DNA from: a virus
Virus record (IMG/VR): IMGVR_UViG_3300045988_058617
Coordinates: 30,063-94,062 of that record
Strand: one strand, 5' to 3'
DNA: 64,000 nt
The notes beneath the pieces were generated by a model, which saw only the letters and a program-made list of their open reading frames with translations, was not told where the DNA came from and did no database searches. A program made the translations under genes and the position numbers. Each line of letters opens with the position of its first letter. The first letter of the stretch is position 1. Shown piece by piece: positions 139-42,097 of the stretch.

Positions 139-488
139 AATTTAGCAAAATCTTCCTTGACTTTAGCTTTTATCTATTTTAATATGTTAAGATATTCCTT
201 ATATTCATTAATAACTTCAGAATCAGAAGTAAGATTTTCTGAATAGCTATTATATGAATTGATTAAATCAAATTCTTCATCAACTGTAAGGAATCTTCTA
301 ACTATAGCTTTTACACAATCTTTGTAATTAGGCTGCCCATTTAATAATACCTAGATAAAACTATAGTAAGTTTTTTCTTTTATGGTATTGTCTAAATCAA
401 GTACTTCAACACTAATTTCTTTTATATCATAGTTATAGTAATAAGTACCGTTCCCAAGTTTTTGGATTGTCTAAGGATAAACGTCCAT
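135..488 (-). CDS. Hypothetical protein immediately downstream of the DGR reverse transcriptase (about 117 aa). It has three in-frame TAGs and ends with TGA.
   Basis: Manual minus-strand translation from the ATG at 488–486 gives a continuous ORF to the TGA at 137–135, with TAG as the only internal stop. It has no resemblance to Avd that I can see. Confidence 0.35.
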
Positions 489-1725
489 TTGTATTCTATT
501 CGGCTCTAACATAAGGTGTTATTTTAAAATTTATAGGAAATTTGTATCTAAGCAAAGAATAGTGTAATCTCCTATTCTTACTTTTAAAATAGTAGGGTTT
601 ATTGTTATACATGAAATGTACTCGAAAATGATTGTCATAATCAACAACCTCTACAATGTGAATATATTTATTATAAAACTTAGATATGTTAACTTCTTTT
701 CCATTCCAGTTAGAGAATTTCAATCCAGTTAACTCCTCTACCTTTCTCAGCAAGTTCTTAGAGTTGCAAAATTTCATCCATCCAAAATAAGACCTCATTC
801 TTCTATTCAATTCATCTTTATCAATCTTATTCTATTTATATAGATTTATAAGCCTAAACATCCTCATTTTTATAGATTTTCTCAGTAGAACATGAGTATG
901 ATAGAATTTATAGCCTACGAAATCAATACCTCTGCTTTCTACAGGGAATATTCGATAATTAGGCTTCAACTCTAGGTTAAGAACCTGTTTCAAATATAGT
1001 TTTATAGATACTAATACATTTCTCAAATAATTCTTGTCATTACCAAGAATCACAATATCGTCAGCATATCGAAAGTAGTACTTACATTTTAACTCCTCTT
1101 TTACCCAGTGGTCAAAATATGTCAGATATAAATTTGCAAAGAATTGTAATAGATAATTTCCAATAGGAACTCCCTTCGCTGAATAAATTATTTCTTTCAA
1201 CAGTTTTAATAGTTTTTTATCCTTTATCTTTCTCTATAACATTTCGTATAAAATGTCGTGAGTTATAGAAGGATAGAATTTTTTTATATCCATTTTCAAG
1301 CAATACTTTGTTTCTTCTGGATGTTTCTATAACACCTTAAACAAATCATACTCTACTTTATGAATACCTCTATTTCGTATAGAGAAATATGTTTGGTCTA
1401 TAAATATACTAGTCCAAATAGGCTCCATAATATTCATTATAGCATGGTGAGTTATTCTATCTGGATAGTATGGAAGTCTAAAGATTAATCTTTCTTTAGG
1501 TTCGTATATTATAAAGGTACTATATTCAGAGGTTTGATAAATCAAATCCCTTAACTTATCGGATAATTCCTTATTTTCTTTTAATCTATTCTTATCATGC
1601 TGCTTGATTCCACATCTAATAGACTTATTTCTTCTAGCTTTATCGTCAGCTAGTTCGATGTTATCTTCAGCGTATACTTTCTCGTGCAAATATCCTACAC
1701 GTTTCAATTTTTTTATATATTTCAT
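433..1725 (-). CDS. Reverse transcriptase of a diversity-generating retroelement (Brt-like). It has 3 in-frame TAG codons and ends with TAA.
   Basis: Six-frame ORFs 1327–1725, 832–1200 and 496–810 are all in the same frame. They are separated only by TAG codons at 1327–1329, 832–834 and 496–498, and the frame ends at TAA 433–435. Motifs match Bordetella phage Brt: YEPKERLI, the FRYADDIVILG (YxDD) box and SRGIDFVGYKF…LLRKS. A TR/VR pair is adjacent. Confidence 0.85.
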
Positions 1726-1853
1726 CGGAAGCGTTCGAGAATTAACCTACTAACACCCTTCATTCAACACTACGTTATCTTTTGCCTAGAGGCAAGGATA
1801 TTACTTAGCAAACTAAAAAAAAATAATAAAATGTTTCTAAATATATAATAACT

Positions 1854-1948
1854 CGACATTGGAATTGGGCATTGCTGACGTCATTGTTAGAATTGAAATA
1901 GCTGAGACCTGCATTGCTGCCATTATTCGCGTTGCTGCCTACTAGCAG
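1854..1948 (-). repeat. DGR template repeat (TR).
   Basis: A 95-nt segment homologous to 2056–2149 and 29275–29368. TR is the AT-rich copy, and every substitution relative to both VRs falls at a TR adenine (minus-strand sense). It lies between the target gene stop and the RT start. Confidence 0.8.
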
Positions 1949-2026
1949 TACTTTTTTGCCAATCAACGGTTTTTAGAAGTAATATCCTACGATTTATCAT
2001 CTAAATCGATTTTTATATTGTATATC

Positions 2027-3400
2027 TTAAGATACTCTATTCAGAGTCCTGAACCCGACATTGGAACCGGCATTGCCGACGCCATTGCCAGAACCGAAAA
2101 AGCCGAGACCTGCATTGCTGCCATAATGCGCGCTGCCGCCCACCAGCAGCGTGCGAAGCGCTGTGCTGCTTGCGTTGCAGTAATGGTAATCGCAAATATA
2201 AGTAGTAGCACTTCCTCCAACAGCGGATGGAATTATTTCAGCGGTTTCACCTAAGTCAAATGCCTTAATATAACCATCAGATGCTACTTCGTATCCTGCA
2301 ACGGTTTTCTCTCCAACTACGTCGGTAAATTCCGATACGTTAGTAGTTGTATAGACATTGCTAATCTCATTAGCAGCTGCCCTCACTATAACTACTCCGT
2401 CCAGGTTAGTCCAAATGTCTCCAAACGGATTATCGAACCCTCTCCAGCGAGGTACCTTAAATGTATGAGTTGCTACTGTACTTGTGCCATCTTGAGCTGT
2501 ACATTCTGGAATAACTAAATCTTTTACTCCAGTGAAGTTACCAAATTCATTGCAGTAACCACAAGGCGTAAGTGGAGATGTTGCATTATATCCTGACCAA
2601 CTTGTAGCTGCGTTAGCCCAATCTGTAACTCCAGGTCCTAAACCTCCTTGATGATATCCATCCGCAGTTAACTCTGCATTATATGCAGCCTAAGAATTAA
2701 AATTAGCATATTCAATGACATAATTCCAGTAGAATATCCATTTGTAATATTCATAGCATAGCAATTCTGAACCAGCATTTGTTGCATATGTTCTCATAGT
2801 AGCTCTAGAAATATTAGTTCTAGGCTTTCCTAAATCACTTCTGAATATATCCTTAGTTTCTAATTCTGTAGTTAGATAATCATCGTAGTTAGCTCTATTT
2901 CCTCCACCTCTAAATGCAGTAGTAGTATTAACTACTGATACAGCTTTTGGAGTTGCGGAGACTGTGGTATCAACTGTACTTCTGTATGCATCTATTAATA
3001 GTTCAGGAATTTCTACCCATGAATCATCAATTTTGACAGTAGAAGTTCTAACCCATCTTTTGTTTCCATCGCTGCCAGATTTTCCATAAAATTTAGGAGT
3101 ATTAACTCTTACTGTTCCATCAGTTCCATCTAAGACAGATGGAGTTTCGCCGTCTTCTTTATAAGACCAGTTATCTGGAAACAGATAGTAATTTACTACA
3201 TCATTGTTTGCTACACAACCTCTATACGCTGACTGAATAGGAAGAGATTTATGCAACAAAGGATTACCTATTCTAGTAAGTTCCGGAGATGCTACTGTAA
3301 CATCCCATTCTACTCCATAGGAATATAAATCCATATTACTATTTAGCTCAGTAACCTACTTATCAAGCTTTTGTTGTGCCTTCTACAATTCTTCCCAAGC
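2027..3400 (-). CDS. DGR target protein 1, a putative receptor-binding or tail-fibre protein with a C-terminal C-type-lectin-like variable region. It is recoded (in-frame TAG at 2690, 3356, 3383…); the N-terminal boundary is not resolved.
   Basis: ORFs 2027–2386 and 2690–3334 share a frame across TAG 2690–2692. TAG-to-Gln readthrough gives coiled-coil text (…ELQKAQQKLDKQVTELNSN…). The gene stops at TAA 2027–2029 and VR1 is embedded at its C-terminus. Confidence 0.6.
2056..2149 (-). repeat. DGR variable repeat 1 (VR1), at the 3' end of target gene 1.
   Basis: It is GC-richer than TR, with adenine-specific mismatches relative to TR (AAT/AAC codons in TR become GGT/GGC/CAT/TAT and so on). It is followed by the hairpin ttcag-gact-ctgaa. 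It encodes the segment …GSAHYGSNAGLGFFGSGNGVGNAGSNVG…. Confidence 0.8.
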
Positions 3401-6400
3401 CTCATTTAGTGCTGTAAATTGCTCTTCTAGCTTAGAACTTGAATCTGCCCATTCAGCAGTACCATCTGCTGAGAAAACTAGCATCTATCCAGACTCTCCT
3501 CCAGATGGAATATGTTTATTTCCAGAAGTAGTTGGGTGTACATAATTATTAGCATTATTAGCTATAGTACTTAACTTTTCCTTCTCAGTTTCAGTATAAT
3601 TGGCTTCAGAAAGTCCCTTTCCTAACTCCTTATCTACTTTGCCTTCAAGCTCACCCTTAGTAGCTAATTCACTAATATCCTAATGCTCAGTCAAATATCC
3701 ACTATCATTCTGTAACTAAGAAGTTTTAGTTGGAATTGCATTAGCTTTGGCATATGTCGTATCTATAACATTTCCAGCACCATCGTAAGTAGCTTTTAAA
3801 TCGTATGTGGTTTCCCCAACCTTTATAGATTTGATTGCTGCCATATCATTGTATTATTAAAGTTTCACCAACTACATCGTGATCTATTCCCTCTATGGAA
3901 GCAGTTAGGTCCTCAACAGCCTTCTACAATTCTGCTTTAGTAGCATAGTTCTTGAGAACTTCCTAGTCTACTCCAGAGCCTCCTCCTATACTTCCTCCAA
4001 CAACTTTTACTGGTTTGGCAGAACTCTTAAACTGTCCTTCAATATAAATTGTTCCCATATTGTTTAAAATATTAATTGTTCATTTTCTCCATCTACCTCT
4101 ACACTAGAACCTGGCTATAAAGCGTCTATCTTTTTCTACAATTCGGCTACGGCCTAGCTAATTAGTTCTTCTACCTCAGCTTTGGTGTAGTATCTCTCTA
4201 TAAGATATTCGCTCCTAACATATCCAGTATCTTGTAAATCTTTTTCTCCATAGGTGCAATAATAAGTATCTTCTTCAGTCTTACTATTCTCAACTAGGTC
4301 ATCATAATCAGCTTGTGGTAAGCATACAAGTTTTGGTACTTCTTCAGTAATAGCAACTTGCTTGCCTCCAGCAAATAGCCTGTTATCTTCTGTGGTAAGT
4401 TTAACAGAACTCTCAATAACTTGCTCAGTTCCTGTTTCCTCAGAAGGTTCTCCAGTTGTTCCCTATTGTACTTCTTTTTCTCCAATTTTCTAAATAGTAA
4501 TATCAGAAGTTTCTACTGATGTAGATTTCAAAAGCTCAGTGCTAAATTCTTTAGCAGCAGCAGCCTAATCATCCTGATATTTTTTCTAGGTAACAAATAT
4601 GAAATCATCATCTCCGGTTTCAGGAGAGTCTCCCCTTAAACTTTCTTTTGTTACGTAATCTTCGGCTATCTAATCTGATAAATTAGATAATGACTATTGA
4701 GTAGCATAAGTAGACTGAGCATTTTCCTTAGTAAGAAATTTGTCATCAACCTGCTAAATAGTATAATAAGCCTTAATATCTTCTGTAGTAACGTAGTTTC
4801 CAAGTTTTTGCAAACCTTGAACTATTTCATCAATCTACTTCTTGGAGTAATAATTTGTAGCAACCCAGGACTGATATTGATTAGTAGTATGATAATTCTA
4901 ATCCAAATATTCCTTAGTAATATAAACCTTTGCATCATTTGTAACGTCATATACATAGTAATATGTATCAGGCTCTACCGTCCCTTCCTCTACTAACTTT
5001 AGATACTCTTCTTCAGTTAATGTTACTAAGTTCGGAATATCCGATTCAGTAGCAATCTAATCTTCACCTATAAATAATCCTTCAGACTTAACGTCTACTA
5101 CTAACTAGCCCTCTCCCTCCACTACAGGAGATTTTATCTACCCAACAGTGATGCTTTCTAAGGAGCCATCTCCATCTACCTTAAGAGTTTTATCTAACTC
5201 GTCTTGGATAGCCTACTAATCTTCCTCATATTCTTTCTTTGTAACGAAGACAAAATCATCTCCTTCCATTCCCTCTCCTCTAAGGCTTTCTTTAGTAACG
5301 AAAATATCGTTTGTTTCTTCCTTAGTATAATACTTAGTCAGTGATAGAGCTAAAGAATCGTTAGAGACATAATTAGTAGTTAATTCTTCCAGTGTAGCAT
5401 AATCTGATAGGCTAGCAATAGTGTTATCTAAGTCTGTTCTAATCTATACTACAGTAGTATTAAGAGCCTTCTATTTTAATTGCTCTTCTATCTTTTTCCC
5501 CCATTCCGCGGATAGGTAAAACTAGTTATCGTCTAAGCTATCCTCATATATATAATAATATGTCTCAGCATGAAGATATGGTTTACTTTCATCTATGGGC
5601 CTAAAATCGTCTGTAGTATTCTCAGACCATTCTTTATATTCAGCCTCTGTACAGGTGATTATCTAGATAGATTCATAGGATGCTTTCCATCCTTCCTTGT
5701 ATTTAATCTTAGACTTATCAATCAGCATATAAATATTTCCGTTATCTATGTTAGCAACGGTCATACCTTGATAAGCATACTTCTCTGGAATAGAATAAAG
5801 TTCGTCTAAGTTATTAATGACTGTTCTATTATCGAGAGGCTTCGGAGTTTCTACGGTTAAAGCGACACCTAAGGTAGCATCACCTGTATATTTAAATGCC
5901 ATTATTGTGATAAAGTAAAGTTAATTTGATGAGGCAATGCTGAGGAGTAAGTATCTTTCTTAGTCCATACCTTGTAAGTAAATCCATTTATCTACTCGGT
6001 AGACGTTTCCCAACCACTTAGGTCTACATTTAAATATCCAAGTCCTCCATCTACGGTAAATGAATTTAACTATGTGTTACTTCCTGGCAATTTTATAATA
6101 GCCTTACCACTTAGTGAAAATGTGATAGTTCCAGACGATTGTCCAAAAGGAACTAGCGCCTATTTAATCACACCATCAGTATTACCAGAATACCAAGGAT
6201 ATGTGGCTACTACCTAAGCGGTAGCGGAAATAGAACCAGCTTCTACTCTCTTATCTGTAACTTCTCCTTTATTATTTATCAAATATTCTCCAGCGGCATA
6301 ACTCACTGTACCAGAGTGAGTATAAGTACCAATAGAATTATATGTATCAGACTCTACAGGAGAACTGTTAGAAGTAATAGTTTCTCGTCTGTCAGTTTCT

Positions 6401-9400
6401 TCTCCAGCATCATTCTTTATAAATGTAAGTGTAGGAGTTAATAAAGCAGTTCCCACTTCTACTATTTGAGAAGTAAAACTATAATAAAGCTATGGGTATA
6501 CTAAATCTCTAACTACTGTTGGAAACAGTAAAGTATCAATAATTTCATTAAAGGGCTTGCCCTTAAGTTTCTCTACTGTAGTCCCTTCAATTACTGTTGA
6601 AGTAGTATCATCTGGGAGTTCCGTCTAATAAGTAGCTATAGTTTCTAAGTTAGTTTGTATATTAGTAATACTTTCAGTATTAGCTTCTACTTTAGTATTT
6701 GTCTCTTGTTGTGCTTCCTAAGTTTTCTATACTTCTTTCTTTGTTTCTTCTAGAGCAGGTTCAAGATTCTTAACATAGATACCTGGAAGGATAATAGAAG
6801 AGGTTTCCTCTCCAATCTCCTATTCTATTAAATGAATAGCATTATCTTCCTAAGTAGATAAAATCACCTCTAAGGAATTATTTTCCTTTAGTTCTATAGT
6901 TTTGGAATTTTGGAGACTATTCTTAATCCAATTAAGAATGTTTTTATCAACATCTATATTCTCAATAGCATTGTTCAACTCAACTATAGCTTCATTGATT
7001 TTTACTATTTCTTCAGATAGATTATTAATTCCTTTTCTATTAATATCAATTTCTCGCTGTAAATCCTCCTTCAATACAGATATAGAAGTTCTAATATTGC
7101 TTATATCGACTTTCAGTTCTTCTATTGCTTCTGTATTAGATTCATATTCGCTAATAAAGTATAGGGCATAGTCTAGGGCATCCTTCACAGTATTAATGCC
7201 TTCTGCAACGTCACTAGTATAGGTCCATTTTTGTTCTATATACTATACTAGGTCTTTTTGCAGTTCTATGGTTCCACTAATGTTTCCCCACAATAGACTC
7301 TACTCATCAGCAATACCTAAGTTCTTTCTTACTTTAGCTTTTTCTAGTTCTGTCCTATATTCTCCTAAATAGTTATTTCTTAAGAGAGGTATAGGCTCAC
7401 ATTTTATAGGCTTACCCTTTTTACCACAAGGCACTATATCTGCGTTACTTACCGAAGTGTAAATAGACTGTATCATTCTAGTTTAATAATTGCTATTTAA
7501 TAAATTCGTGATTATCTAGTCTTACAGGTAGGTTAATAAAACAAATTAGATTAAGAATATCTTGATAATCTGGTTTATATCCCTTTTTGAGTTTTCTTAG
7601 AAAATCCTCATACCTTTTAATAGCCTTTCTCTTAAGAGCATCCACAACCTATACGTTTATGTCCATGGTGGTGATTGTCACAGAATCCTCCACAGGTACG
7701 GAACATCGCTAGTAATCTTTCAGCCTCCATGAATTGTTTAAAGCATATTAAATAATCTATAATGTTAAGAGTCATCCATATGAAATCTCGAGCAAATATA
7801 AGTGCTTCCTAATCTCTAGTTAGACACTTATTTAGTAAAGCATCAAAGAGTTTCTTACAATAATTAATGTAACACTACTACAAGTTTCCTGTAAAGAAAA
7901 CATCTACCTTACATTTTTTTATAGTAGTTCCTTCTATGTTTCGTTCAAGAACTTCTTTAACTGTACACTCTTCTAGCTTACCTTCTACTTCTTTATATAA
8001 TTTTTCTCCATCAGTAACATAGATAGTCTCATAGTATTCCTTGTATTCGTCCGATGAATTTTCATACCATTTCATATTAGGAATAATGATATGGTCTACT
8101 ACGTAATAACCATCATCCTTGACCTTAAACATACACGAGTCTAAGTCTTCTGTATGGTCATTAAGTAGGACATCTATCAGAGTAGCATCGCTTATACTAA
8201 CTTTGATGATAGTATTCAAGGTAGCACTCTCACTATACTTATAGGAGTCGTAAGAAGTTACTACCTCTACATCTTCATCAATATACTAGCCATATTCTTT
8301 TGAGAAATCTTCTATCAGTATTTCCCCATTAATTTGGGTATGTATATCAATACTAAATTCCATATTGCAATAATATTAAGTGTTAGGCCATTGACCGTAT
8401 TGAGCTGGTGTAGAAAAAGGTCCCCACTTTCCAGATTGCTTTATACGTCTAGACATAAAAACAGAAGTAAAAGATAAACTAATATCTTGTGGATAGTCAG
8501 TCCAGGTATAAGACTATCCATCTGGAGTAGGAGGTAATTTATCAATCCCAGAGGAGGGCTGTCCATTCCAGTAGTAGTTATAGTCATAGGCTTTAATAGA
8601 GGTTACTTCTGTGGTTTCTCTCCCGTCAGAATCTATATAGAGAGGATCTCCTTTTTCATTCGTTTTTTGTTTATACTCTATAACTGGTGTTATTCCCTCG
8701 GTTCTAGTATATATAGTCTATATAATAGTAGAGACATCACTCGCTACTATTTCATAGATAGTAGTTCCCTATGATTCATCAGCTCCCTAAAAAGTAAATT
8801 TAGTTCTTTTCCATATATATGGATTCTCTTCTGTTGGAAGCTCAAAAGTATCAGACCACTACTTACTTGATAGTTTTATTTCAGATTCATTGGCAGTATT
8901 AGCAGGGAGATAATGTATTTTAATAATAATACTATTAACTGCTTCACTTGAACCGGATAAATCTGATACCTACTTAAATAATTTTTTTAAGTCGTCTTCT
9001 ACATTTGATTTAGAACCGGAAGCATTACTTATAATTACTGTCCCATCAGAGATAGGATAAATCTACTACTAATCTTTGTTGTATACAATTGTTCCAGTTG
9101 CCATATTAATGTATTTGTCTTATTTTGTCATTATATGGATTTCCATCATGAAGCTAAGCCAACTCTATTTCAGTTCTTTTTTCTTCAATATCCATTTGTC
9201 TATCTTTATAAGTAGAATCAGACTGAGCTTTAAGCCAGTTAACTTTATATTCTAACTGCATCTTCTACTATTCTAATCCCAGTCTCTATTCATCTAAGCT
9301 TTCAATCTTTTGCTGAGCTTTCTATAATTCTTGCTATAACTACTGAGCCTATTGAGAAGTTTCTTCTAATTTTTCTTGTAGTTGCTGAAGCTGATTATTT

Positions 9401-11218
9401 TCCTCTTTGCGAACTTGAACAGCTTTCTTAACCTTATATTTAAGGTCTGTCAGACTCTTAGATGTAAGAGCCTCAAAAATAATATCTGGATCCATCTGTT
9501 GACTTTTTACGAACTCTGGAATGATTGCTTTTATAGTCTATAAATCTTCCATCACTTCTGAACTAGCAGTAATATGAATATCGTAGTCAGTAACAGTAAA
9601 ATACTCAGGAAGTGCGGTGAATATCTGTTGATATTTATCCCCAAGTATAATAGTTCCAGTTAATCCTTTCTTATAAGTAACTTTAGCCTAATTAAGACTA
9701 TCTAGTAGTATCTCGCAGGTTATTAAATCCATCTGCTAAAAATAGTGCTTAGTTACTATATACGAGTTAGCTACTCCCTACTTAATATTAGTAACTGCAT
9801 CTCTAGTTTCTATACCGTTAAGTCGTTCCCTAAATACTCCAGTTATTGATGATGTAGTTTGTTCTACTGATTGAATAGCTAGTTCAATAGCCTATACAGC
9901 CTATGCTTTTAAGGTATCATCAAATCCGTTATATATCTAGTTTGGAGCTTGCTGTCCGTCATTCCTACCTTCTTGGCTTGAGTCTATCCACATGATACCA
10001 CCTTTTTTATAAGCTAACCATTTTTGTACTCGTTCTGGCCATTTAACTCCTAAGTTGGTAGGCAACAGAGACATATCCATAATAACTCCAGCAGTACCAC
10101 TATTAGCTATTAGATTATCTCTATAATAGTTTAATAAGTCGTATCTATCCTACAGATGTGCACATTTTAATATAAGAGAATAAGGCTACTAAGAGCGATT
10201 TAAGAAATATACTCCATTTACCGATAAAGAACAGAAGTTGGGATTATCTTTAGACCTCATAACAGTCTTGTCTAATCCTCTAAGAATATATATCTCTTCT
10301 CCTATTCTGATAGTATTGTATCTCTACATCACAAAATCATCATCTGTTTCAATCCATTCAACATCATAGACTGGGATTAACTAGAACCTATGAGCACTAT
10401 ATTCATTGTCTGGATAGCCGGGAATGGTTTCATGATTCTAATCTTCATTTACTACTGTACAAGTATCTCCATATACTCTTCTATAAACAGCAGCTGAATC
10501 ATCAGCTCGCCATTCATCTTTTAGTCTTCTTAAATCTTCTCTAGATATTTCTTTGCCATATTTAGCTAAAATCTAACTCTTACTCATCCACTTTCTTACT
10601 ACAACTCTATATGAGTTCCTTACATATGGAGATTCTGGATTTCTATCAACAAATGTATTAAGTGGGTTTAATACCTCTATTTCAATATTAGTTCCAGAAG
10701 CCGATGATTTCACTCTAAAGAATGTATAACCAGTAATTAATAAGTCTGTTAGTAACTAACGTAACTTAGTAATTAAATCGGTTTCTCTGGATTGCATAAT
10801 ATAATGTACTATATTCTAAGCTGCAATTTCATATTGAGAAATAAAGGATTGGTCAATATCCTATATAATTTTATCTAACTAAGTCTTTACAGCTTTATCA
10901 GTAATATCCTTGCCATCAATAAACTTAAGAATTGAATTACTTAAATGGTCTTTCAAAAACTTTACTATTCCCTTGGTTATTTCTAGCTATTTTTCTCTTG
11001 TTATATTACTGATAGTATCTGAATCTTTGCAAGAAATTTTCGGAAGTATAGGAGTTCCTAAATATTCTCCAACTAGAGCATCTACGTGTTTCTTTAATAA
11101 AGGCGTAAACTCTACCGAAGTGGGGCTACCTATTCCGAAGTTTTCTTCCAGATAACGGAACTATTCAGGATCTCTTTTACCATTATAATAATTATAAGCT
11201 TTCTGTAACTCATACTTA
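3400..11218 (-). other. Block of TAG-recoded late/structural genes on the minus strand (tail/fibre-like and coiled-coil-rich proteins). Individual gene boundaries are not resolved.
   Basis: Six-frame ORFs here are short (4294–4485, 5663–5902, 6214–6456, 6850–7188, 7878–8219). Each terminates at a TAG (cta on the + strand), never TAA or TGA. The sequence between them has coding-like codon periodicity. Confidence 0.5.
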
Positions 11219-11680
11219 TCATATACAAGTTCCGCAATAGCCTCGTTTGTCTTGTCTATTAATTCCTTCTCTTTCATAACATAAATTATGTTGTTCTGGA
11301 GGAAGTTTAGTAGCGTTATAATACTTAACTCTTTGCAACTTCCTACTTCTTAATTCTTCCTTAATAAATGGCAGAAATTCTTCGTCTGGTAAATCTGCTA
11401 TTATTACTAATGGCATTTCTGACCTATCAAAGTTAAAAGAGACTTTATACCCAACTGGGTCTAAACTCTCAATATCTAGTCCGCCTATATACTCCATTTT
11501 GTACAAGTCCCTCATATATTCTAGGATCACTTGTTTCAACTCTGTATGGGTCATCATATTCGTTTCTTTGCATATTAAGTTCAGGAGTTTTCTTAGTTGG
11601 AATAACTCCAAATCTTTTAATTCCTCTCTCGTCGTAATAGTAACCAAAATCTTGGAACTATTCAACTTCTTTCTCCACAA
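11219..11680 (-). CDS. Hypothetical protein ending in TGA; it overlaps the 3' end of terL in another frame. The real start is probably an internal ATG.
   Basis: ORF track, 153 aa. The terminal TGA at 11219–11221 was verified. Confidence 0.45.
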   Translation of the reverse strand: MWRKKLNSSKILVTITTREELKDLELFQLRKLLNLICKETNMMTHTELKQVILEYMRDLYKMEYIGGLDIESLDPVGYKVSFNFDRSEMPLVIIADLPDEEFLPFIKEELRSRKLQRVKYYNATKLPPEQHNLCYEREGINRQDKRGYCGTCI

Positions 11681-13832
11681 GTACGGGCTGTCTTCCTGAT
11701 AGCTCTTGGTCTGCTAACTCAGTCATACCTACAGCGGCTACAATATCATACTTACCCTTATTTTCATCATTATATGCAGTGAACTATTCTAGCATTTCTT
11801 CGAACCATATAGTATGGCAATAGTCTTCTATAAAGGCGGCTGTTAAATCAGTATGCTATTCGATTATAGTTTTTGTAGCAGGAGTTCCATACTATTTAGT
11901 AGTTCCATTTCTAACGTCAGTTAGAGTAGCTCTTGGGCGCTTCATAAAATAGTTAAGGCATCCTTTTTCTCTAGCCCAAGTAACCATACCCATACGAGTA
12001 GCTTCTATATTTATTTTACAATTATAATAGCGAGCTAAACACATAGCTATTTTATAGGCTTCTCTGATGTCTCCAGGTCTATCCTTGTACATAGCAACAT
12101 ACTGAGGGTCATTCATACCAAACGCACGTTTCTTAATCGTTATGCAGAAATCAGACGGGTCTCTGGTTTCCTTAGAAGTCTAATTCGCTCCAATATCAAT
12201 ACCGTCTATACCTGCTACATATAAGTCTCGCATCTCTTTATAAACTGGAACTTCAAAATCCTAGCCATTATCTTCTGCCTCCTATCTAAGCTTTTCCATT
12301 TGTTCTTTATATAAGTCAGACCATATTGGATGCTCTAGAATTTTTACTTTGCCATTCCTGTTAGGAATCCATTTAAAACCATCAATATTATCCTAAGTAT
12401 GTTTATTATTTTTGTAAAAATAATCAATATAACCACATTCGGGTCTTGGGCCAATTTGTTTAAGTCTTATATTAGCTATCTATTCGGCAACTAAAATTTT
12501 ATTAAACTTATTAACACCTTCTAGATTAAATGCTTCTTCTGCATTCCAACAACGTTCAGCGCATTTCTTTAGGTAGTCTTCTGGTACAGCTAACAGATTA
12601 TCTCGCTCCTCCTATAAGAATTTCTTATATTCCACAGTATTACATACTCCTCTGTGGTCCATAAATTCTGGATTCAAAGATTGTATAAAGTATGGAATAA
12701 AGAATCCACTCTCTATAGTAGTCCCATCCTAAGTCCAATTATGTCTAAATGGAAGAATCTTATATGCTCTTGGATTATAGTAAATCTTTTTTAAGCCCTC
12801 TAGAGGAGCACCCATATCACCGCCAGTACCTCCAAACAACATTGTTCCACGAGGCATACCTTGAACTTCACAAAGTTCTTGACCTTGTACCACAGCGGTA
12901 TCAAGTCCAGGCCAGGAACCAGCTTCATCATATATTAATAAATCTACACGGTCTCCACGAATGTTAGATGGTTTAGCTCCGTTAATTGCTACAACCTCAG
13001 ATTTAAATCCTACGTCTTCAAACTAACCATTTATTTTGATTTGTTTACCTGATTTCTTTCTCAAATCCTGGTCAATAAGTCGCAATTTAAAAAATCCTCC
13101 TCCAGTACAGGTATTTAAGAATGTAAGAGCATTGTCAAACTTACTAAAGGTACCCTTAAGGAAGGTATCATTAAAGCAAGTAATCATAACCCTACTTCTT
13201 CTAATAATAGAGTACATACGAGCAGAAAGAGAGGCGTTTATTTCAGAGAATCCAATAGAACGAGCTTTCATTAAAGCTGCGTGCTTGTGTAGCACCCTAG
13301 CCATCTATAGATAATGAAAGAACGTATAATGTGATGCAAAGAATATTGGGAAGTCATTATCAGTACCCTCACCAGAGGCTTTCTACTAGTCAATAGTAGG
13401 TAACTAATAGAAATTTAAGAAGAAGTAATTATCTCCAGTAATGGTGTATCCATTAACTGTCATTCCATACTTACATCTTCTATATTGCTCTTTCCAAAAT
13501 TCGTTGTACCGCTTACTATCTCTAAGGTAGGGACAGTATTGACCAGTTCGTTTATATACTTCCCTAGTCTCGGTAAACCAATCTGGATTAAAGTCCAATC
13601 CATGAGTTTCGTCAATAGGTCTGTATCCAGTTATTTCATAAGATAAGGTAGGGTCAAATACTTCTATTTTATCTCCTATTTTAACATCCCAATAGTCAGA
13701 ATTTCTGACCCTTTCCTCTCTTATTTTCTATACTAATTCTCTAGCTTCTTTAGCATCCTCTTTCTATTCTTTTTCTCTTACCTAATCTACAATATTCTAT
13801 ATTTCTTCAGGTAATATCTTTTTTCTTGGCAT
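11616..13832 (-). CDS. terL: Terminase large subunit, about 738 aa, with many in-frame TAG codons (amber-recoded).
   Basis: Frame-0 ORFs 11892–12116, 13023–13304 and 13404–13598 are joined only by TAGs. Manual translation gives MPRKKILPEEI(Q)NIVD… from ATG 13832–13830, and a Walker-B/catalytic motif …RVDLLIYDEAGSWPGLD… near 12930. The frame terminates at TAA 11616–11618. Confidence 0.8.
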
Positions 13833-14432
13833 AATTAAAAGTCTCCTGGGTCAAAACCATCCACAGCTCCAGCTCTAACAGTAGATTGTTCAGTAAGTTC
13901 TTTCTTAACCTAGTCTTCTAGTGTTATGAGTTCTTCATGAACTTTGTGAAGGGTAGCCATTTCCTTCATTACTTTTTCAGCCTGGAATACTGGCTTGCCG
14001 TTATTATCACGCTCATTTAAATCTACAATAGTTTCGAAATAATCAATAAACTAGTCTGCAGCTCTTTTAGCTGCTTCCAGTAATTTTATTGACTTGTTTG
14101 AATCTTGTAACGCTCTGTACTTCCTACAGGCTTCTCTAAATATAGGGTCGTTAAATTCCGACTCTGTCAATCCAGAATCACTAATAGCTTCGTCATGTCG
14201 TTCATGTTCCGAATACTAACTGTACGGACTTTTCCAGTCTATAGCTAAATAAATGTAAGATAGTTCTCTAGTAGCTCTATCCTTTTCTGCAGATTTATCC
14301 CTCTAGATTAAAGCCTTAAATTCCTTAACTAGCAATATCTCTGGTTCATTTATTTCTAGCTATTTAGTTAAAGTGTTATAGTTAAATACATTCATAATCA
14401 TTAATCATTATCATACACATTAGATAATCTTA

Positions 14433-14567
14433 TTATTTCTTTTTCATTTTGGAACCGCACTTATTGACTTTCATTTTTGAGCCACAAGCGTCTTTCTTAG
14501 CATATTGTTTTCTGTCAGGAACCCATTTTCCTCCCTGGAAATTACCCTTATGTCCTTTATTGGCCAT
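14433..14567 (-). CDS. Small, very basic protein (about 44 aa, MANKGHKGNFQGGKWVPDRKQYAKKDACGSKMKVNKCGSKMKKK).
   Basis: Manual translation, below the ORF-track size cut-off. Its function is unknown. Confidence 0.3.
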   Translation of the reverse strand: MANKGHKGNFQGGKWVPDRKQYAKKDACGSKMKVNKCGSKMKKK

Positions 14568-14648
14568 AGTTTCCTAATCATTGTATTTATTGATTGATAT
14601 AGAATCTCTTGAGGCTTCGTCTCTAGCAGATTTCATATCTTTCTTATA

Positions 14649-15914
14649 CTAAGCTCTTCCTGCCTTAAATTTATCAACTTCATTAGCTTTCTTAGTAACT
14701 TTAGTTCCTTTTTGTGCTTTCTGGCAAGCTTTACAGATTCTACCGCCTTGCTTAAAATATACAAGCTCTTCTCCTTCTGGACATACTCCTTTTAGCTTCT
14801 TATAATACTCAAGCTTAGCTCCAAGCCTAGCCATTACTCCTCCTTGCATTTTCTGCATAAATTCCTGATACTTAGCTTTAATGCCGTCTTCACCTAATTG
14901 TTCAGCATAAGCTTGTAAATCCTGTTCAGACTATATCTGAACTCCCTATGACTGCGCATCCTATATTAAATATGCCACAAACGCTTTTTGTAATTCTTGT
15001 TGATTATTCATTGTTCCTCCTTGTTGAAATTTAGTTGTAGGTCCCGGAGATAATGTTAATGGTTCAGCTTCTGATTTTCTAGAATTCCATACATCTCCAA
15101 GATAATTAAATAATCTCAACCTCCTATGTATCCCAAAATCTCCTCCTTGTACTGTATTTCCCATAGTATATCTACTAGTGGCCTGTACAGGATTTACTTT
15201 AGGCTTACTTGAAGGCTACTCGGCTCTTGTCTATTCACTAGCTGGCTAACGGCCTCCTGTAATAGTTGGTATTCCTCTACCCCAAGTAGTTCCTTTTGTT
15301 GTAGCAATTAGGTCTGGAGATTCTATACTAATCTAAGTACCTAACTAAGGAATCTGAATGGCAGAAGGTTGTTTAGGCTTACTTGAAGGCTACTCGGCTC
15401 TTGTCTATTCACTAGCTGGCTAACGGCCTCCTGTAATAGTTGGTATTCCTCTACCCCAAGTAGTTCCTTTTGTTGTAGCAATTAGGTCTGGAGATTCTAT
15501 ACTAATCTAAGTACCTAACTAAGGAATCTGAATGGCAGAAGGTTGTTTAGGCTTACTTGAAGGCTGTCCTAAGTCTGTAGTATATACAGAATTTCCCCAC
15601 ATAAACTGTTTTAGTCCTCTCTCTCTAGCAGCCCTAAAAGCTGTCTTAAAATCTTTAACACCTCTTAAATCATCCTAAGCTATTTCAGCAGTAGGAAGAG
15701 GTTCTAATCTTGTGGGTAATGAAGGCATTTCTGGAGCATCAAAATATGTCTCTTGTAACTTAGGCATTTTCTATTGTGCGGTTCTTCTAATAATGTCTGG
15801 ATTAGTTGCCCAAGTCTAATGCAACTACCTCAAGGTTCTCTCATCTAAGTCCGCATCTCCGTAAATAATTTTGATATTACGCATCAATTCAGGGTCAAAC
15901 TACACTTTAGCCAT
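14649..15914 (-). CDS. Late protein (recoded) containing a tandemly duplicated 58-aa P/T/Q/S-rich segment. The 3' boundary is uncertain.
   Basis: ATG at 15914–15912 (MAKV(Q)FDPELMRNIK…). The frame-0 ORFs 14961–15164 and 14649–14858 continue the same frame across TAGs. The gene carries the 174-bp repeat. Confidence 0.45.
15201..15566. repeat. Perfect 174-bp tandem direct repeat: 2 full copies plus an 18-bp third copy, in-frame within a late gene.
   Basis: Units 15201–15374 and 15375–15548 are identical. 15549–15566 restarts the unit and then diverges. 174 nt is 58 codons. Confidence 0.85.
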
Positions 15915-15916
15915 TA

Positions 15917-16069
15917 CTCTTCTACTTTAATTAAATCCTTAGTATTAAACACTGCTTCCTACATAAGTCCGGAATCAGTAAACCATCTACATCTTAATCC
16001 TCGTAATCCTTGGTTATCTTTAAATAAAGCTGCTTCTCTTCTTAGAACAAGCATAACTGGAGAGTGCAT
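15917..16069 (-). CDS. Small hypothetical protein (about 50 aa) with one in-frame TAG.
   Basis: Manual translation: MHSPVMLVLRREAALFKDNQGLRG…. Confidence 0.25.
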
Positions 16070-20594: not shown

Positions 20595-20611
20595 AACTAT
20601 TAATTTTGGCG

Positions 20612-20683
20612 TTGCCCTACTAGGATTCGAACCCAGACTAAATGATTTAGAGTCATCTGTGCTGACCATTACACCATAGGGCA
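20612..20683 (-). tRNA. Amber-suppressor tRNA, anticodon CUA (reads UAG), with a Gln-tRNA-like scaffold.
   Basis: Manual fold: acceptor TGCCCTA/TAGGGCA, D arm GTGT-AATGGTCA-GCAC, anticodon stem GATGA/TCATT, loop CTCTAAA (U33, CUA, A37), T arm CTGGG-TTCGAAT-CCTAG. Its overall architecture is almost identical to tRNA-Gln(UUG) at 33540. Confidence 0.8.
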
Positions 20684-38908: not shown

Positions 38909-39519
38909 ATGGCATATATTTATTGCATTACAAATTTAATTAATAGCAAGCGATACGTAGGAAAAACTACTACTTCTATAGAAGAGCGCTGGAAGGAACA
39001 TTGTTATGACTTTTAGAAAGAAAGATGCAACAAAAGACCTTTATATGATGCCATGAATAGGTGTTGAGAACTTTATGATAGAGGAATTGGAATATGTAGA
39101 TAGTAACTCTGAATTATCTGAAAGAGCTAGGAACTTATGGTTCTAATGGGTACAATGCCTCTAAAGGAGGAGATGGCACTATTCTATACAATCATAGTGA
39201 AATTGTAGAATTAGCTAGATTGGGATATACTAGTTCTTAGATACAAGAAAAAATAGGGTGCTGTAAAGACACTATTTACAAAGTTTTGAAGGCAAATAAT
39301 ATAAAAATTAGAAAAAGTAACGCAAAGTTAATTGCTTAGTATGACTTAGCAGGTAATTTTATACAGGTATTCTTTGGTTCCAGAGAAGCTTAGGAATGGT
39401 TAATTAATAACGGAATTACTGACAATAAATCTGCATAGAGTCATATTATAGGATGCTGTAAGAATAAAACCAAATCATAGTATGGCTACATTTGGAAATA
39501 TCTTCCAGAGCCTATTTAA
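38909..39519 (+). pseudogene. GIY-YIG homing endonuclease gene (I-TevI/Seg-like) inside the tRNA array, interrupted by two frameshifts. It also contains 6 in-frame TAGs (one N-terminal, five C-terminal) and ends in TAA.
   Basis: Manual three-frame translation: frame A MAYIYCITNLINSKRYVGKTTTSIEERWKEHCYDF… (the GIY-YIG motif). It shifts near 39053–39062 to GVENFMIEELEYVDSNSELSERARNLWF, then near 39140–39150 to …GSNGYNASKGGDGTILYNHSEIVELARLGYTSS(Q)IQEKIG…. All premature stops in the last frame are TAG. Confidence 0.6.
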
Positions 39520-39665
39520 TCTTTAAATCACTGTTTCGACATTTTCAGTCTAAATGCCGTGTCTGGAGACGTTACCAACCAGTCGTGCTATACGGTTAGA
39601 ATAGTCCGTGCCTCACTGGTGATAGAGGCATCCCTGGGTAGCGGATGTAAAGTGGCTACCAATAT

Positions 39666-39743
39666 CGTGGAGTAGAGAAGTGGTCATCTCGCTAGGCTCA
39701 TAACCTAGAAATCGTCATAAACGGTTCGAATCCTACCTCCGCA
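39666..39743 (+). pseudogene. Degenerate tRNA-Met-like sequence (CAT anticodon arm CTAGG-CTCATAA-CCTAG, D arm, and a TTCGAAT T-loop) with an unpaired T-stem and a poorly paired acceptor; probably a tRNA pseudogene.
   Basis: Manual fold attempts. It resembles the intact tRNA-Met at 40851 but has about 16 nt between the anticodon stem and the T-loop. Confidence 0.3.
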
Positions 39744-39937
39744 ACGAAACTCCTTTTGTGGCCCTGAATTAGATTAATTATTAACAATTTTAAACTTTGA
39801 TGTTATGAAGAAAGTAATTAATGTTGTGAAGAAAGCTGCTAAGTGGTATTTTGAACAGAGTTCTAAGAGCTATACATGGTTAGTTTCTGGAACTATTCCG
39901 CCTCCTTATAGAGGTCTAGAGTAAAGATACTACTAAA

Positions 39938-39962
39938 AGGTAAGTACCAAAGGGGTACTTAT
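39938..39962 (+). terminator. Hairpin (taagtacc-aaag-ggtactta) upstream of tRNA-Asn.
   Basis: A perfect 8-bp inverted repeat; there is no clear T-run. Confidence 0.3.
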
Positions 39963-39988
39963 CTACACCCGTGGAGAAAATTAACTAT

Positions 39989-40060
39989 TGGGGTATAGTT
40001 CAAAGGTCAGAACTTTTGACTGTTAATCAAAGAATCATGGTTCGAGTCCATGTGCCCCAG
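39989..40060 (+). tRNA. tRNA-Asn (anticodon GTT).
   Basis: Manual fold: TGGGGTA/TGCCCCA, GTTC/GAAC, TTTGA-CTGTTAA-TCAAA, CATGG-TTCGAGT-CCATG. Confidence 0.75.
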
Positions 40061-40574
40061 CTATTGACCTTATATTAGATTATGCATCAGTGTGATTATT
40101 GTTGTTGGTACTACAGTGGAAATTGTGATTGTCCATATGTAATGAAGAAACAAGCGTGTGAAAATGCTTTGAAAACTAAAGAGAGACCTATTAGAAAAGT
40201 ACAAAATGTTTCAAACTCCAAAACTAGCTAATGAGATTTCATGGAAAGACATGAAGGAATTTAACTCTTATATGAAAGAAGTAGTTCGTGATTATAAGAT
40301 TAAACAGGCTAAATCAATTCAGAGTGCTAGAAACGTAATAATATCCTGACCTGGCAAGGTAAAAATCCATTCGGGGTTGAAGCCAGTCCCTGCGAAATCA
40401 TAGAGACCTTTTCTGACACGATAGTCGATGAACTGAGAGAGTAGCATGGTTGCGAACTTATGCTACTAGAACATGATTCAAACAAAAAAAACTTATCTGG
40501 TGTTGTTAAGTTATGGAATCTTAACAGTGGAAATTTATGGGTATGTCACCAATTAAAAAGAAAATCCCAAAAAT

Positions 40575-40647
40575 GGGCCGTTAGCTCAAATGGCTAGAGC
40601 GCTGGTTTTGCACACCGGAAGATAGGGTTCGAGTCCCTGCGTGTCCA
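40575..40647 (+). tRNA. tRNA-Ala-like (anticodon TGC) with a G3·U70 pair and A73, but a poorly paired acceptor stem (only 4 of 7 positions pair); it may be a pseudogene.
   Basis: D arm GCTC-AAATGGCTA-GAGC, anticodon stem CTGGT/ACCGG with loop TTTGCAC, T arm TAGGG-TTCGAGT-CCCTG. The acceptor GGGCCGT pairs weakly with CGTGTCC. Confidence 0.45.
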
Positions 40648-40850
40648 CAAACTTTATTTAAAAAATTATGAAAGTATATGTAGTAAATTATCACCCAGCT
40701 AATGCTCCTCAAAATTATGAAACTGATTGCCAAATCTTCTTAGACAAGAAACAGGCAGAGAAGTATAAAGAGGCTAAGGAAAAAGAGTTTCCTATTAGCT
40801 GGGGAGGAGAGTATAATCATTGTAAACTAATTAAAAAGCATTTGTAATAT

Positions 40851-40923
40851 CGCGGGATGATAGCAGAGGTAGCTAGTCAGGCTCATAACCTGAAGGTCGT
40901 CGGTTCGAATCCGACTCCCGTTA
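40851..40923 (+). tRNA. tRNA-Met (anticodon CAT) with an unpaired C1·U72.
   Basis: Manual fold: CGCGGGA/TCCCGTT, TAGC/GCTA D stem, TCAGG-CTCATAA-CCTGA, GTCGG-TTCGAAT-CCGAC. Confidence 0.65.
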
Positions 40924-40946
40924 TTTTTAACAATTAAAATTAGATT

Positions 40947-41372
40947 ATGGATTTCAAGAATCTTACAAAGGAATCTCTTCCGAAAGAATTTCAGGAGAGA
41001 ATCGAACGTTTCAATCGTTTGTTCGTTGAAGCTGGTGATGGTACATTTGAAGAAAATGACCTATTTGGTTATGAAATGGCTTGTATAAAGCAAGCCCTAT
41101 CATTCTCTGAGTTTTTCAAAGAAATGAGTCTAGAGGAATGTAAAGCCTTCTATGAGAAATATCCTAGCTTATTTGAGCTGATTGAGGCTATCAAAGACAA
41201 ACTTCCGTACTTTGATAATGGTCATAGTGGAAACTCTATGAGCATGAGTTGGATGCTATACAGGTGTTATAAGGAGAAACCCGAACTTGTTCCTTATATG
41301 CACGGTTGTTTAGCCCAACTTGTTGGGGACGAGGGCTATCATGATAACCGTTCTGATGTTCCAAAACTATGA
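40947..41372 (+). CDS. Hypothetical protein.
   Basis: ORF track, 141 aa. Confidence 0.5.
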   Translation: MDFKNLTKESLPKEFQERIERFNRLFVEAGDGTFEENDLFGYEMACIKQALSFSEFFKEMSLEECKAFYEKYPSLFELIEAIKDKLPYFDNGHSGNSMSMSWMLYRCYKEKPELVPYMHGCLAQLVGDEGYHDNRSDVPKL

Positions 41373-41945: not shown

Positions 41946-42097
41946 TAAGTGTGAGACTTATTTAGACTATAGACCTAGTGAACCAACTTGGATTCAATTT
42001 AAGTTCCAGTCTAGCGAGTTTGACTTAGAAAAGTTGGATAAGCTATCTAGAGAAGCTGATAGAGTAGTTACTAAGGAAATATTAAAACAGTGTTTAC

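What the first reader, a model, noticed from the sequence alone, without database searches (positions are those of the whole stretch)
38909..39519. GIY-YIG homing endonuclease in the tRNA cluster, carrying amber codons and two frameshifts
A clear I-TevI/Seg-like N-terminus (MAYIYCITNLINSKRYVGKT…SIEERWKEH) continues in two other frames: GVENFMIEELEYVD…, then …KELGTYGSNGYNASKGGDG…, with a helix-turn-helix-like C-terminus. The premature stops in the final frame are all TAG (five), and there is one TAG in the first frame. This suggests the gene is or was translated under amber suppression. It nevertheless needs a +1 and a −1/+2 frame correction. It may be a decaying homing endonuclease gene, a case of programmed frameshifting, or assembly indels. 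Its location beside tRNA genes parallels T4 segB.
Basis: partly seen in the sequence, partly recalled or inferred. Interest (0 to 1): 0.55.

Follow-up and report, generated by a model that had tools for sequence, protein, structure and literature searches.

The report
Decayed homing endonuclease in amber-recoded phage
This is a recently broken copy of a selfish DNA-cutting gene (a GIY-YIG homing endonuclease) lying among the tRNA genes of a human-gut crAss-like phage that reads the TAG stop codon as glutamine; it is an ordinary pseudogene of a known kind, not programmed frameshifting.

Summary
Window 38909-39519 (+) encodes a GIY-YIG homing endonuclease (HE) spread over three frames, with one TAG in the first frame and five in the last. 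The same gene occurs in 22 other contigs as a single 211-codon frame that is 99.4-100% identical and has six in-frame TAGs. The window copy differs only by two deletions. A 5-bp deletion after 39059 removes K51/Y52. A 20-bp deletion at 39120-39126, flanked by an AAAGAG repeat, removes R74-I79, including the catalytic Glu75. An ENA contig identical to the window over 6.2 kb carries the same two deletions. The same HE is independently damaged in other lineages (three frameshifts; an in-frame loss of G89-Y90-N91; N91K). The TAGs are sense codons. The phage's minus-strand virion-gene block is readable only if TAG is sense, and the phage encodes a tRNA(CUA) most similar to its own tRNA-Gln. At an invariant Gln position, a paralogous HE has CAG where this gene has TAG. 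Programmed frameshifting is rejected and assembly error is unlikely. The SegB parallel is sound. The idea that recoded stops delay HE production is already published. Low novelty.

The parts
38909..39059 (+). HE pseudogene, segment 1: codons 1-50 plus one base. It holds the GIY/YIG tyrosines, R27 and H31, and a sense TAG at 39014.
   Evidence: Identical to the intact allele in L001 and 21 other loci.
39059..39060 (+). Junction of the 5-bp deletion (AGTAT missing). It removes K51/Y52 of the conserved KYG motif and shifts the frame by +1.
   Evidence: Conservation of these residues.
39060..39120 (+). HE pseudogene, segment 2: G53 to about E73, in the second frame.
39120..39126 (+). Junction of the 20-bp deletion (AAAGAGAAATCTATTGGATA missing), which lies between two AAAGAG direct repeats. 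It removes R74-I79, including the catalytic Glu75, and shifts the frame by +1.
   Evidence: 6-bp microhomology; alignment to I-TevI E75.
39121..39519 (+). HE pseudogene, segment 3: K80 to the end. It holds the GYN motif, a helix-turn-helix module and a NUMOD1-like C-terminal domain. It has five sense TAGs and the TAA stop at 39517-39519.
38787..38888 (+). Dead remnant of the cassette's 86-nt tRNA(GCA) with a long variable arm. An 8-bp deletion removes the anticodon loop, and a 25-bp insertion sits in the variable arm.
38483..38785 (+). 100-aa Cys-rich (zinc-ribbon-like) ORF. It is the first gene of the three-part cassette that is present or absent together with the HE.
   Evidence: It is frameshifted in other lineages.
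20611..20683 (-). Phage tRNA with anticodon CUA (amber suppressor). It is most similar to the phage's own tRNA-Gln(UUG) and is the presumed decoder of the HE's TAG codons.
433..15926 (-). Virion and packaging gene block. Its ORFs are readable only with TAG as a sense codon (4-28 TAG per ORF). This shows that the genome is TAG-recoded.

Best explanation
The locus is a recently inactivated copy of a free-standing GIY-YIG homing endonuclease gene. It lies in the tRNA-gene array of a ~185-190 kb crAss-like human-gut phage that reads TAG as glutamine. The intact gene is 211 codons and has three parts: an I-TevI-type catalytic domain, a three-helix HTH module and a NUMOD1-like C-terminal DNA-binding domain. 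It carries six TAG codons at the density typical of the phage's late genes. It can therefore be translated in full only when the phage's tRNA-Gln-like suppressor tRNA(CUA) is available. It travels as a cassette of a 100-aa ORF, a long-arm tRNA(GCA) and the HE. The cassette is nearly identical across phages whose flanks have diverged, it is absent from some relatives, and the HE recombines with a paralogous HE. All of this fits spread by homing. In the window's lineage two microdeletions (5 bp and 20 bp) broke the frame twice and removed the catalytic Glu75, so no active nuclease can be made. This is the degeneration stage of the homing-endonuclease life cycle. Shown here: the identity of the gene, the deletions, the recoding, the presence/absence polymorphism and independent decays elsewhere. 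Inferred: homing itself, TAG-dependent late expression, and that the deletions are real mutations rather than artefacts.
For: Identity of the gene: Pfam GIY-YIG scores 49.3 bits for the intact allele and 35.7 bits for the frame-corrected window copy. The protein aligns with the I-TevI catalytic domain (1MK0/1LN0, E=1.4e-9), matching Y5, Y16, R27, H31, E75 and N91. An AF2 model matches 1MK0 with TM 0.83 and rmsd 1.9 A.
Deletions: alignment with MT837398.1 shows that the window differs only by -5 and -20 bp. Among the loci examined, 22 are full-length with no indel and 0-4 mismatches. The 20-bp deletion is flanked by a 6-bp repeat. Across 16 deletions of this lineage, mean microhomology is 3.1 bp against 0.76 bp expected at random (0 of 5000 simulations reached the observed mean). 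They spare the large ORFs, and the deletions inside ORFs that remain open are multiples of three.
Independent support: ENA contig L042 is identical to the window over 6180 bp apart from a 25-bp insertion, and it has the same del5, del20 and del8. The same HE has decayed independently in L043/L045 (-1, -10, -14), in L049 (in-frame loss of G89-Y90-N91) and in L046 (N91K).
Recoding: ORF coverage rises from 56% to 82% when TAG is treated as sense. Minus-strand ORFs carry 4-28 TAG each. The tRNA(CUA) at 20611-20683 is closest to the phage's tRNA-Gln. At invariant Gln152 (120 of 120 homologues) this gene has TAG and the paralogous HE has CAG. The HE has 2.8 TAG per 100 codons, against 1.0-4.0 in late genes and none in 5491 codons of 20 plus-strand ORFs.
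Mobility: the cassette is 99.5-100% identical while the left flank is 81-99.9% identical. The cassette is absent from L006 with exact boundaries, and the region containing it is absent from L023. Chimeric A/B alleles and a second HE insertion after tRNA-Met also occur.
Against: No reads were available, so I cannot rule out that the window and L042 come from the same sample and share an artefact. In the ~1.06-kb cassette the window has 4 indels but only 2 substitutions against the consensus. That is more indel-rich than neutral decay predicts, given about 10 substitutions per indel across the surrounding 13 kb. Cleavage activity, the target site and late-only translation are untested. The Pfam SegE-type GIY-YIG model is below threshold (16.4 against 25 bits), so membership of the Seg family proper is not shown.
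Confidence: 0.85

Rival explanations
1. The two frame breaks are assembly or sequencing artefacts, and the gene is intact in the real phage.
For: The deletion junction is absent from IMG/VR, the JGI metagenomes and the GTDB genomes. The only other carrier, L042, is otherwise identical to the window and may derive from the same or a closely related sample. The window also has a 25-bp insertion that L042 lacks.
Against: Deletions of 5 and 20 bp that are not in homopolymers are not typical read or assembler errors. The 20-bp deletion lies exactly between 6-bp direct repeats. The lineage's deletions as a whole are enriched for microhomology and avoid the large ORFs, which is the signature of mutation filtered by selection. 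A separately deposited assembly has the same alleles. Other lineages show different inactivating lesions in the same gene.
Confidence: 0.07
2. Programmed ribosomal frameshifting (two +1 events) yields a full-length endonuclease from the three frames.
For: The three frames join up in order, and both shifts have the same sign.
Against: Twenty-two relatives encode the protein in one frame, and no relative other than L042, which is identical to the window, shares these shift sites. The bases missing from the window encode residues that are at least 97% conserved (K51, Y52, E75, W78, I79). A frameshifted product would therefore still lack the catalytic Glu, which is the residue mutated in the I-TevI E75A entry 1MK0. 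By eye, I saw no recognised slippery motif or stimulator at 39056-39067 or 39100-39144.
Confidence: 0.01
3. The catalytic domain has been knocked out under selection, and the remnant is retained as a nuclease-dead DNA-binding protein. It could be translated from the ATG at 39094 through 39519 (141 codons, TAG read as Gln), for example as a repressor or as protection of the target site.
For: The lesions cluster in the catalytic domain in four independent lineages: window/L042, L043/L045, L049 (an in-frame loss of GYN that leaves a full-length protein) and L046 (N91K). The gene caller behind the L042 record predicted a 141-aa product over the third segment. The C-terminal domain of the window copy has no lesion.
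Against: L043/L045 also carry a frameshifting 14-bp deletion in the C-terminal domain. The neighbouring tRNA and the 100-aa ORF decay as well, which fits general loss of the cassette. There is no evidence of expression.
Confidence: 0.07

Closest known systems
T4/T6 SegB, a free-standing GIY-YIG homing endonuclease in the phage tRNA gene cluster (PMC2330249; PMC13096335)
   Same: Both have a GIY-YIG catalytic domain and are free-standing rather than intron-encoded. Both sit between tRNA genes, and flanking tRNA genes appear to travel with the endonuclease. The association of SegB homologues with tRNA genes is reported as widespread, including in phages of Bacteroidota.
   Different: Sequence membership of the Seg family is not shown: Pfam SegE_GIY-YIG scores 16.4 bits against a cut-off of 25. 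The host phage is crAss-like and TAG-recoded. The gene carries six sense TAGs. The window copy is dead.
I-TevI, the T4 td intron endonuclease (PDB 1MK0, 1LN0)
   Same: The catalytic domain aligns at E=1.4e-9 with all six catalytic or motif residues at equivalent positions. The model superposes with TM 0.83 and rmsd 1.9 A. Both have a modular layout of nuclease plus C-terminal DNA-binding modules.
   Different: This gene is not inside an intron; Rfam finds no group I intron in 20-46 kb. The C-terminal half is an HTH plus a NUMOD1-like domain. No match to the I-TevI DNA-binding region was detected.
Recoded-stop intron endonuclease in TGA-recoded 'Agate' phages (Borges et al., bioRxiv 10.1101/2021.08.26.457843)
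   Same: In both cases a homing endonuclease lies in an early, standard-code region yet is rich in the recoded stop codon. That paper already proposes that in-frame stops prevent endonuclease production until late in infection.
   Different: Here the recoded codon is TAG read as Gln rather than TGA read as Trp. The gene is free-standing rather than intron-borne. A second nuclease gene (PD-(D/E)XK, 26333-26737) shows the same pattern.
Zeta crAss-like phages, e.g. Lera (PMC12386605)
   Same: Both have a forward block with replication genes, most tRNA genes and several homing endonucleases that differ between close relatives. Both have a reverse block with virion genes and a DGR whose reverse transcriptase carries amber codons. 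Both encode suppressor tRNAs.
   Different: Assignment of this window to that family was not tested by phylogeny. TerL is only 26-29% identical to classified Crassvirales.

Membership tests
GIY-YIG nuclease superfamily (Pfam PF01541) | Profile match above the curated gathering score | tested here: met
   The frame-corrected window translation scores 35.7 bits and the intact allele 49.3 bits, against a cut-off of 22.6.
GIY-YIG nuclease superfamily (Pfam PF01541) | Complete catalytic set (I-TevI Y6, Y17, R27, H31, E75, N90 equivalents) in the copy in this window | tested here: not met
   The 20-bp deletion removes R74-I79, including E75, and the 5-bp deletion removes K51/Y52. The intact relatives have all six residues.
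GIY-YIG nuclease superfamily (Pfam PF01541) | GIY-YIG alpha/beta fold | tested here: met
   The AF2 model of the intact relative P0001 matches I-TevI 1MK0 in Foldseek with TM(target) 0.83, rmsd 1.9 A and 34% identity. This was tested on the relative, not on the broken window copy.
Free-standing (Seg-type) homing endonuclease | Not embedded in an intron or intein; intergenic position | tested here: met
   The gene lies between a tRNA remnant (38787-38888) and tRNA-Met (39666-39745). Rfam gives no group I or II intron hit in 20-46 kb.
Free-standing (Seg-type) homing endonuclease | Presence/absence polymorphism at a fixed site among close relatives, with the element more conserved than its flanks | tested here: met
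   The cassette is absent from L006 with exact boundaries at 38469 and 39526, and the region containing it is absent from L023. The cassette is 99.5-100% identical while the left flank is 81-99.9% identical.
Free-standing (Seg-type) homing endonuclease | Site-specific cleavage of the endonuclease-free allele and co-conversion of flanking markers | not testable with these tools
   This needs purified protein from the intact allele and mixed-infection crosses.
Free-standing (Seg-type) homing endonuclease | Match to the Seg-specific profile (Pfam SegE_GIY-YIG, PF19835) | tested here: not met
   16.4-16.8 bits against a cut-off of 25.
TAG-to-Gln recoded phage (genetic code 15) | Conserved ORFs readable only with TAG as a sense codon | tested here: met
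   Ten minus-strand ORFs of 189-793 codons carry 4-28 TAG each. ORF coverage rises from 56% to 82%. The HE's six TAGs are conserved in 22 copies.
TAG-to-Gln recoded phage (genetic code 15) | Phage-encoded suppressor tRNA with anticodon CUA | tested here: met
   The tRNA at 20611-20683 (-) is called by ARAGORN and scores 66.3 bits in Rfam. Its best pairwise match is the phage's tRNA-Gln(UUG).
TAG-to-Gln recoded phage (genetic code 15) | TAG aligns with Gln in homologues | tested here: met
   At aa152 the homologues have Q in 120 of 120 cases, and at aa119 in 104 of 120. At aa152 the paralogous HE has CAG. Caveat: some database Qs may themselves be TAG-encoded.
TAG-to-Gln recoded phage (genetic code 15) | Peptide evidence for Gln at TAG | not testable with these tools
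   Metaproteomic evidence exists for other crAss-like phages (PMC9523058, title and abstract seen), but not for this phage.
Programmed ribosomal frameshift site | Frameshift conserved in homologues, with the same protein made only through the shift | tested here: not met
   All 22 full-length relatives read in a single frame. The window's shifts coincide with deletions shared only with L042, which is identical to the window.

The most novel reading that the evidence does not exclude
The clustering of microhomology-flanked microdeletions on the endonuclease genes and on at least five tRNA genes of this array may not be passive decay. It could be the scar of breaks made by the array's own nucleases (the GIY-YIG and PD-(D/E)XK enzymes) and repaired by error-prone end joining. 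On this reading the selfish nucleases actively drive turnover and erosion of the phage tRNA array. The TAG codons would act as a late-infection gate that limits this self-damage.
Probability: 0.1. Interest if true: 0.6.

Novelty: new member of a known kind. Interest (0 to 1): 0.27.

Why it matters
Practically, this locus shows how a gene can look 'frameshifted and full of stops' for two separate reasons: genuine decay, and a non-standard genetic code. Annotators of crAss-like phages need code 15 and comparative data to tell these apart. Biologically, it gives a well-sampled natural series of the homing-endonuclease life cycle in an abundant human-gut phage. The series includes intact, chimeric, catalytically dead, frameshifted and absent alleles. 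It also adds two further examples of selfish nuclease genes that carry recoded stop codons inside an otherwise standard-code block. Both fit the published idea that recoding delays their expression. None of this overturns current understanding.

Tried and rejected
1. Exact searches for the 5-bp and 20-bp deletion junctions in IMG/VR found nothing. Searches for the 5-bp junction in the JGI metagenomes and GTDB genomes also found nothing. The allele was found only later, through a neighbouring protein, in ENA contig L042.
2. Look-ups of window-specific ORFs (38837-39016, 36793-37392, 40082-40231) were not on record.
3. The origin of the 25-bp insertion was not found. There is no other copy in the window with up to 3 mismatches, nor in the loci fetched by then.
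4. I looked for a group I intron or another structured RNA that might host the endonuclease. Rfam gave only tRNAs and a tmRNA.
5. A megablast of the late-gene block against GenBank phages found no match. The phage is represented there only by unannotated fragments (MT837398.1, MT836666.1).
6. I considered whether the window's many small deletions were random noise. This was rejected because of the excess microhomology and the avoidance of large ORFs.
7. Foldseek gave no convincing structural match for the C-terminal DNA-binding half; the best was I-HmuI at E=0.06.

Full report
**Observation.**
- The first ORF starts at 38909: MAYIYCITNLINSKRYVGKTTTSIEERWKEHCYDF-TAG-KERCNKRPLYDAMNRC-TGA.
- The second frame reads GVENFMIEELEYVDSNSELSERARNLWF-TAA.
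- The third frame runs from ...KELGTYGSNGYNASKGGDG to ...YLPEPI-TAA (39517-39519). It is interrupted only by TAG, at 39238, 39337, 39391, 39436 and 39478.

The concatenated translation passes Pfam GIY-YIG (35.7 bits; cut-off 22.6) and matches PHROG 314 'homing endonuclease' at E=1e-20. Both frame changes are +1. The second break lies at 39120-39126, not at 39140-39150.

**What broke the frame.** GenBank fragment MT837398.1 (L001; human faeces) carries the same gene. Over about 700 bp it is identical to the window apart from two gaps.
- The window lacks AGTAT after 39059.
- The window lacks AAAGAGAAATCTATTGGATA at 39120-39126.

In L001 the gene is one 211-codon frame with six in-frame TAGs and a TAA stop. 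I collected 48 further related loci: from IMG/VR by exact DNA pattern, and from ENA, Logan and JGI through neighbouring proteins. The census is as follows.
- 22 full-length copies have no indel and 0-4 mismatches.
- 4 partial copies have no indel.
- 5 copies have indels: the window, L042, L043, L045 and L049.

The intact protein aligns with the I-TevI catalytic domain (PDB 1MK0/1LN0, E=1.4e-9). Y5, Y16, R27, H31, E75 and N91 sit at the equivalent positions. An AlphaFold model of the intact relative superposes on 1MK0 with TM 0.83 and rmsd 1.9 A. It then shows a three-helix HTH module and a confident C-terminal beta-beta-alpha-alpha-beta domain. The 20-bp deletion removes R74-I79, which includes Glu75. 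The 5-bp deletion removes K51/Y52. All of these residues are at least 97% conserved among 120 homologues. Even a perfectly frameshifting ribosome would therefore make a protein without the catalytic glutamate. Programmed frameshifting is rejected.

**Are the deletions real?** Reads are not available, but four lines of evidence argue for real mutations.
- The 20-bp deletion lies exactly between two AAAGAG repeats.
- Against its close relative L011, the window lineage has 16 deletions of 5 bp or more between 33.5 and 46.7 kb. Their mean flanking microhomology is 3.1 bp, against 0.76 bp for random placements (0 of 5000 simulations reached the observed mean).
- Those deletions avoid the large conserved ORFs, and the ones inside ORFs that remain open are multiples of three. 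Random assembly noise would not do this.
- ENA contig L042 (ERZ28623503, sample SAMN00715146, 178 kb) is identical to window 37643-43847, with 0 mismatches in 6180 bp. Its only difference is that it lacks the 25-bp insertion. It carries the same del5, del20 and tRNA del8.

The same endonuclease has also been damaged independently elsewhere.
- L043/L045 have -1, -10 (inside GSNGYN) and -14, giving three frameshifts.
- L049 has an in-frame 9-bp loss of G89-Y90-N91.
- L046 has N91K.

This is the pattern expected for the degeneration phase of a homing endonuclease.

**The TAG codons.** The window is a TAG-recoded phage.
- Treating TAG as sense raises coverage by ORFs of at least 100 codons from 56% to 82%.
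- It restores ten minus-strand ORFs of 189-793 codons between 433 and 15926. These include the portal, the large terminase, tail proteins and a DGR-type reverse transcriptase, and each carries 4-28 TAG.
- By contrast, 20 plus-strand ORFs (5491 codons) contain no TAG.
- A tRNA with anticodon CUA lies at 20611-20683 (-). Its closest relative among the window's tRNAs is tRNA-Gln(UUG).
- At position 152, which is Gln in 120 of 120 homologues, this gene has TAG and the paralogous endonuclease in L001 has CAG.

The HE has 2.8 TAG per 100 codons, and TAG makes up 75% of its Gln-type codons. This is like the late genes (1.0-4.0 per 100; 42-67%), although the gene lies in the standard-code block. A second nuclease gene in the tRNA array behaves the same way. 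It is a PD-(D/E)XK gene (Pfam PF11645, 64 bits) at 26333-26737, and its three TAGs are conserved in 12 of the 13 related contigs (L029 is frameshifted). These two are the only credible TAG-bearing ORFs I found on the plus strand. Borges et al. have already proposed that recoded stops keep a homing endonuclease from being made until late in infection. This locus is consistent with that idea but does not test it.

**Context and mobility.** TerL is 26-29% identical to Crassvirales terminases. Related contigs are 94-192 kb. The two-block layout matches published zeta crAss-like phages: a tRNA array, variable homing endonucleases, and a DGR with an amber-bearing reverse transcriptase. The HE is the last gene of a cassette: a 100-aa Cys-rich ORF (38483-38785), an 86-nt tRNA(GCA) with a long variable arm, and the HE.
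- The cassette is 99.5-100% identical in contigs whose left flank is only 81-99.9% identical to the window.
- In L006 it is replaced, with exact boundaries, by two ordinary tRNA genes. The region containing it is missing in L023.
- A paralogous endonuclease ('allele B', three TAGs) is inserted after tRNA-Met in L001 and L022. In L017, L018 and L020 the first site holds A/B chimeras with different crossover points.

These features fit homing and gene conversion, as described for T4 SegB in its tRNA cluster (PMC2330249). They also fit the reported widespread association of SegB homologues with tRNA genes (PMC13096335). The Seg-specific Pfam model is below threshold. I therefore call the gene Seg-like in function and position, but not a demonstrated family member.

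**Verdict.** This is a real, correctly identified and freshly decayed GIY-YIG homing endonuclease in an amber-recoded crAss-like phage. It is a new member of a known kind, and the mechanistic ideas it illustrates are already in the literature. Two things remain unexplained.
- The cassette is unusually indel-rich: 4 indels against 2 substitutions.
- The 25-bp insertion in the tRNA remnant is the only difference between the window and an otherwise identical ENA contig.

Noticed in passing
window 38787-38888 (intact form: L001 1898-1983): In relatives the tRNA next to the endonuclease is an 86-nt cloverleaf with anticodon GCA (Cys) and a long variable arm (AAAGA-GAAA-UCUUU). That is a class II shape, which is unusual for tRNA-Cys, and a normal 75-nt tRNA-Cys(GCA) also exists at 36930-37004. 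In the window this tRNA is dead: 8 bp of the anticodon loop are deleted.
   Followed up: partly
window 38837-38861: A 25-bp insertion (ATGAGTTCACTTTCTCTCCTTTGCC) is partly an inverted copy of the adjacent AAAGAGAAA and is flanked by an ATGAG repeat. It is the only difference between the window and ENA contig L042 over 6.2 kb. No source copy was found in the window or in the loci fetched by then.
   Followed up: partly
window 26333-26737 (+): A second putative homing nuclease (PD-(D/E)XK, Pfam PF11645, 64 bits) lies between tRNA-Lys and tRNA-Pro. Its three in-frame TAGs are conserved in 12 of the 13 related contigs; L029 is frameshifted by -7. The window copy has two in-frame deletions (-39 and -18 bp).
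   Followed up: partly
window 28834-28899, 34452-34519, 40850-40924, 42979-43050: Four more tRNA genes carry 5-8 bp deletions not seen in the relatives compared, and these destroy structure. They are His-GTG, Met-CAT, Met-CAT and Ile-GAT in the relatives. Two have 7-bp losses at the same variable-loop/T-stem position, and two lose the 3' acceptor strand. ARAGORN no longer calls the first two. L012 has its own private deletions inside tRNA genes, so the array seems generally prone to microdeletion.
   Followed up: partly
window about 24000-45100: About 30 indels of 5-39 bp, mostly deletions, separate this lineage from the relatives compared. They are enriched for flanking microhomology. They break several small ORFs that are intact in L011, for example at 33849, 34078, 37355, 41618-41933 and 43486.
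   Followed up: partly
window 23597-23666 (+): A well-scoring tRNA (Rfam 57 bits) has anticodon UUA (ochre suppressor type), yet TAA is the commonest stop codon of the window's genes on both strands.
   Followed up: no
window 42392-42955 (+): Rfam tmRNA matches over the full model (68.8 bits, E=4.5e-25), but the hit spans 564 nt against a 374-position model. ARAGORN does not call it. It may be a phage tmRNA with insertions.
   Followed up: no
window 433-1800 (-): A DGR-type reverse transcriptase (PHROG 1423, E=7e-108) carries seven in-frame TAGs at the end of the virion block.
   Followed up: no
L017, L018, L020 (about 2120-2755); L001 2948-3583; L022 2113-2748: Two endonuclease alleles (A and B, about 70% DNA identity) form chimeras with different crossover points at the first site. 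Allele B also occupies a second site directly after tRNA-Met(39666-39745).
   Followed up: partly
window 38483-38785, and equivalents in L024, L025, L026, L043-L047, L049: The 100-aa Cys-rich ORF of the cassette is frameshifted in several lineages. The cause is length changes in a G-run or deletions of 6-14 bp, so every part of the cassette appears dispensable.
   Followed up: partly
window 39666-39745 (+): The tRNA-Met downstream of the endonuclease is 80 nt long. It has a 12-nt extra stretch in the variable region and a poorly paired T-stem in the Rfam alignment (39 bits).
   Followed up: no
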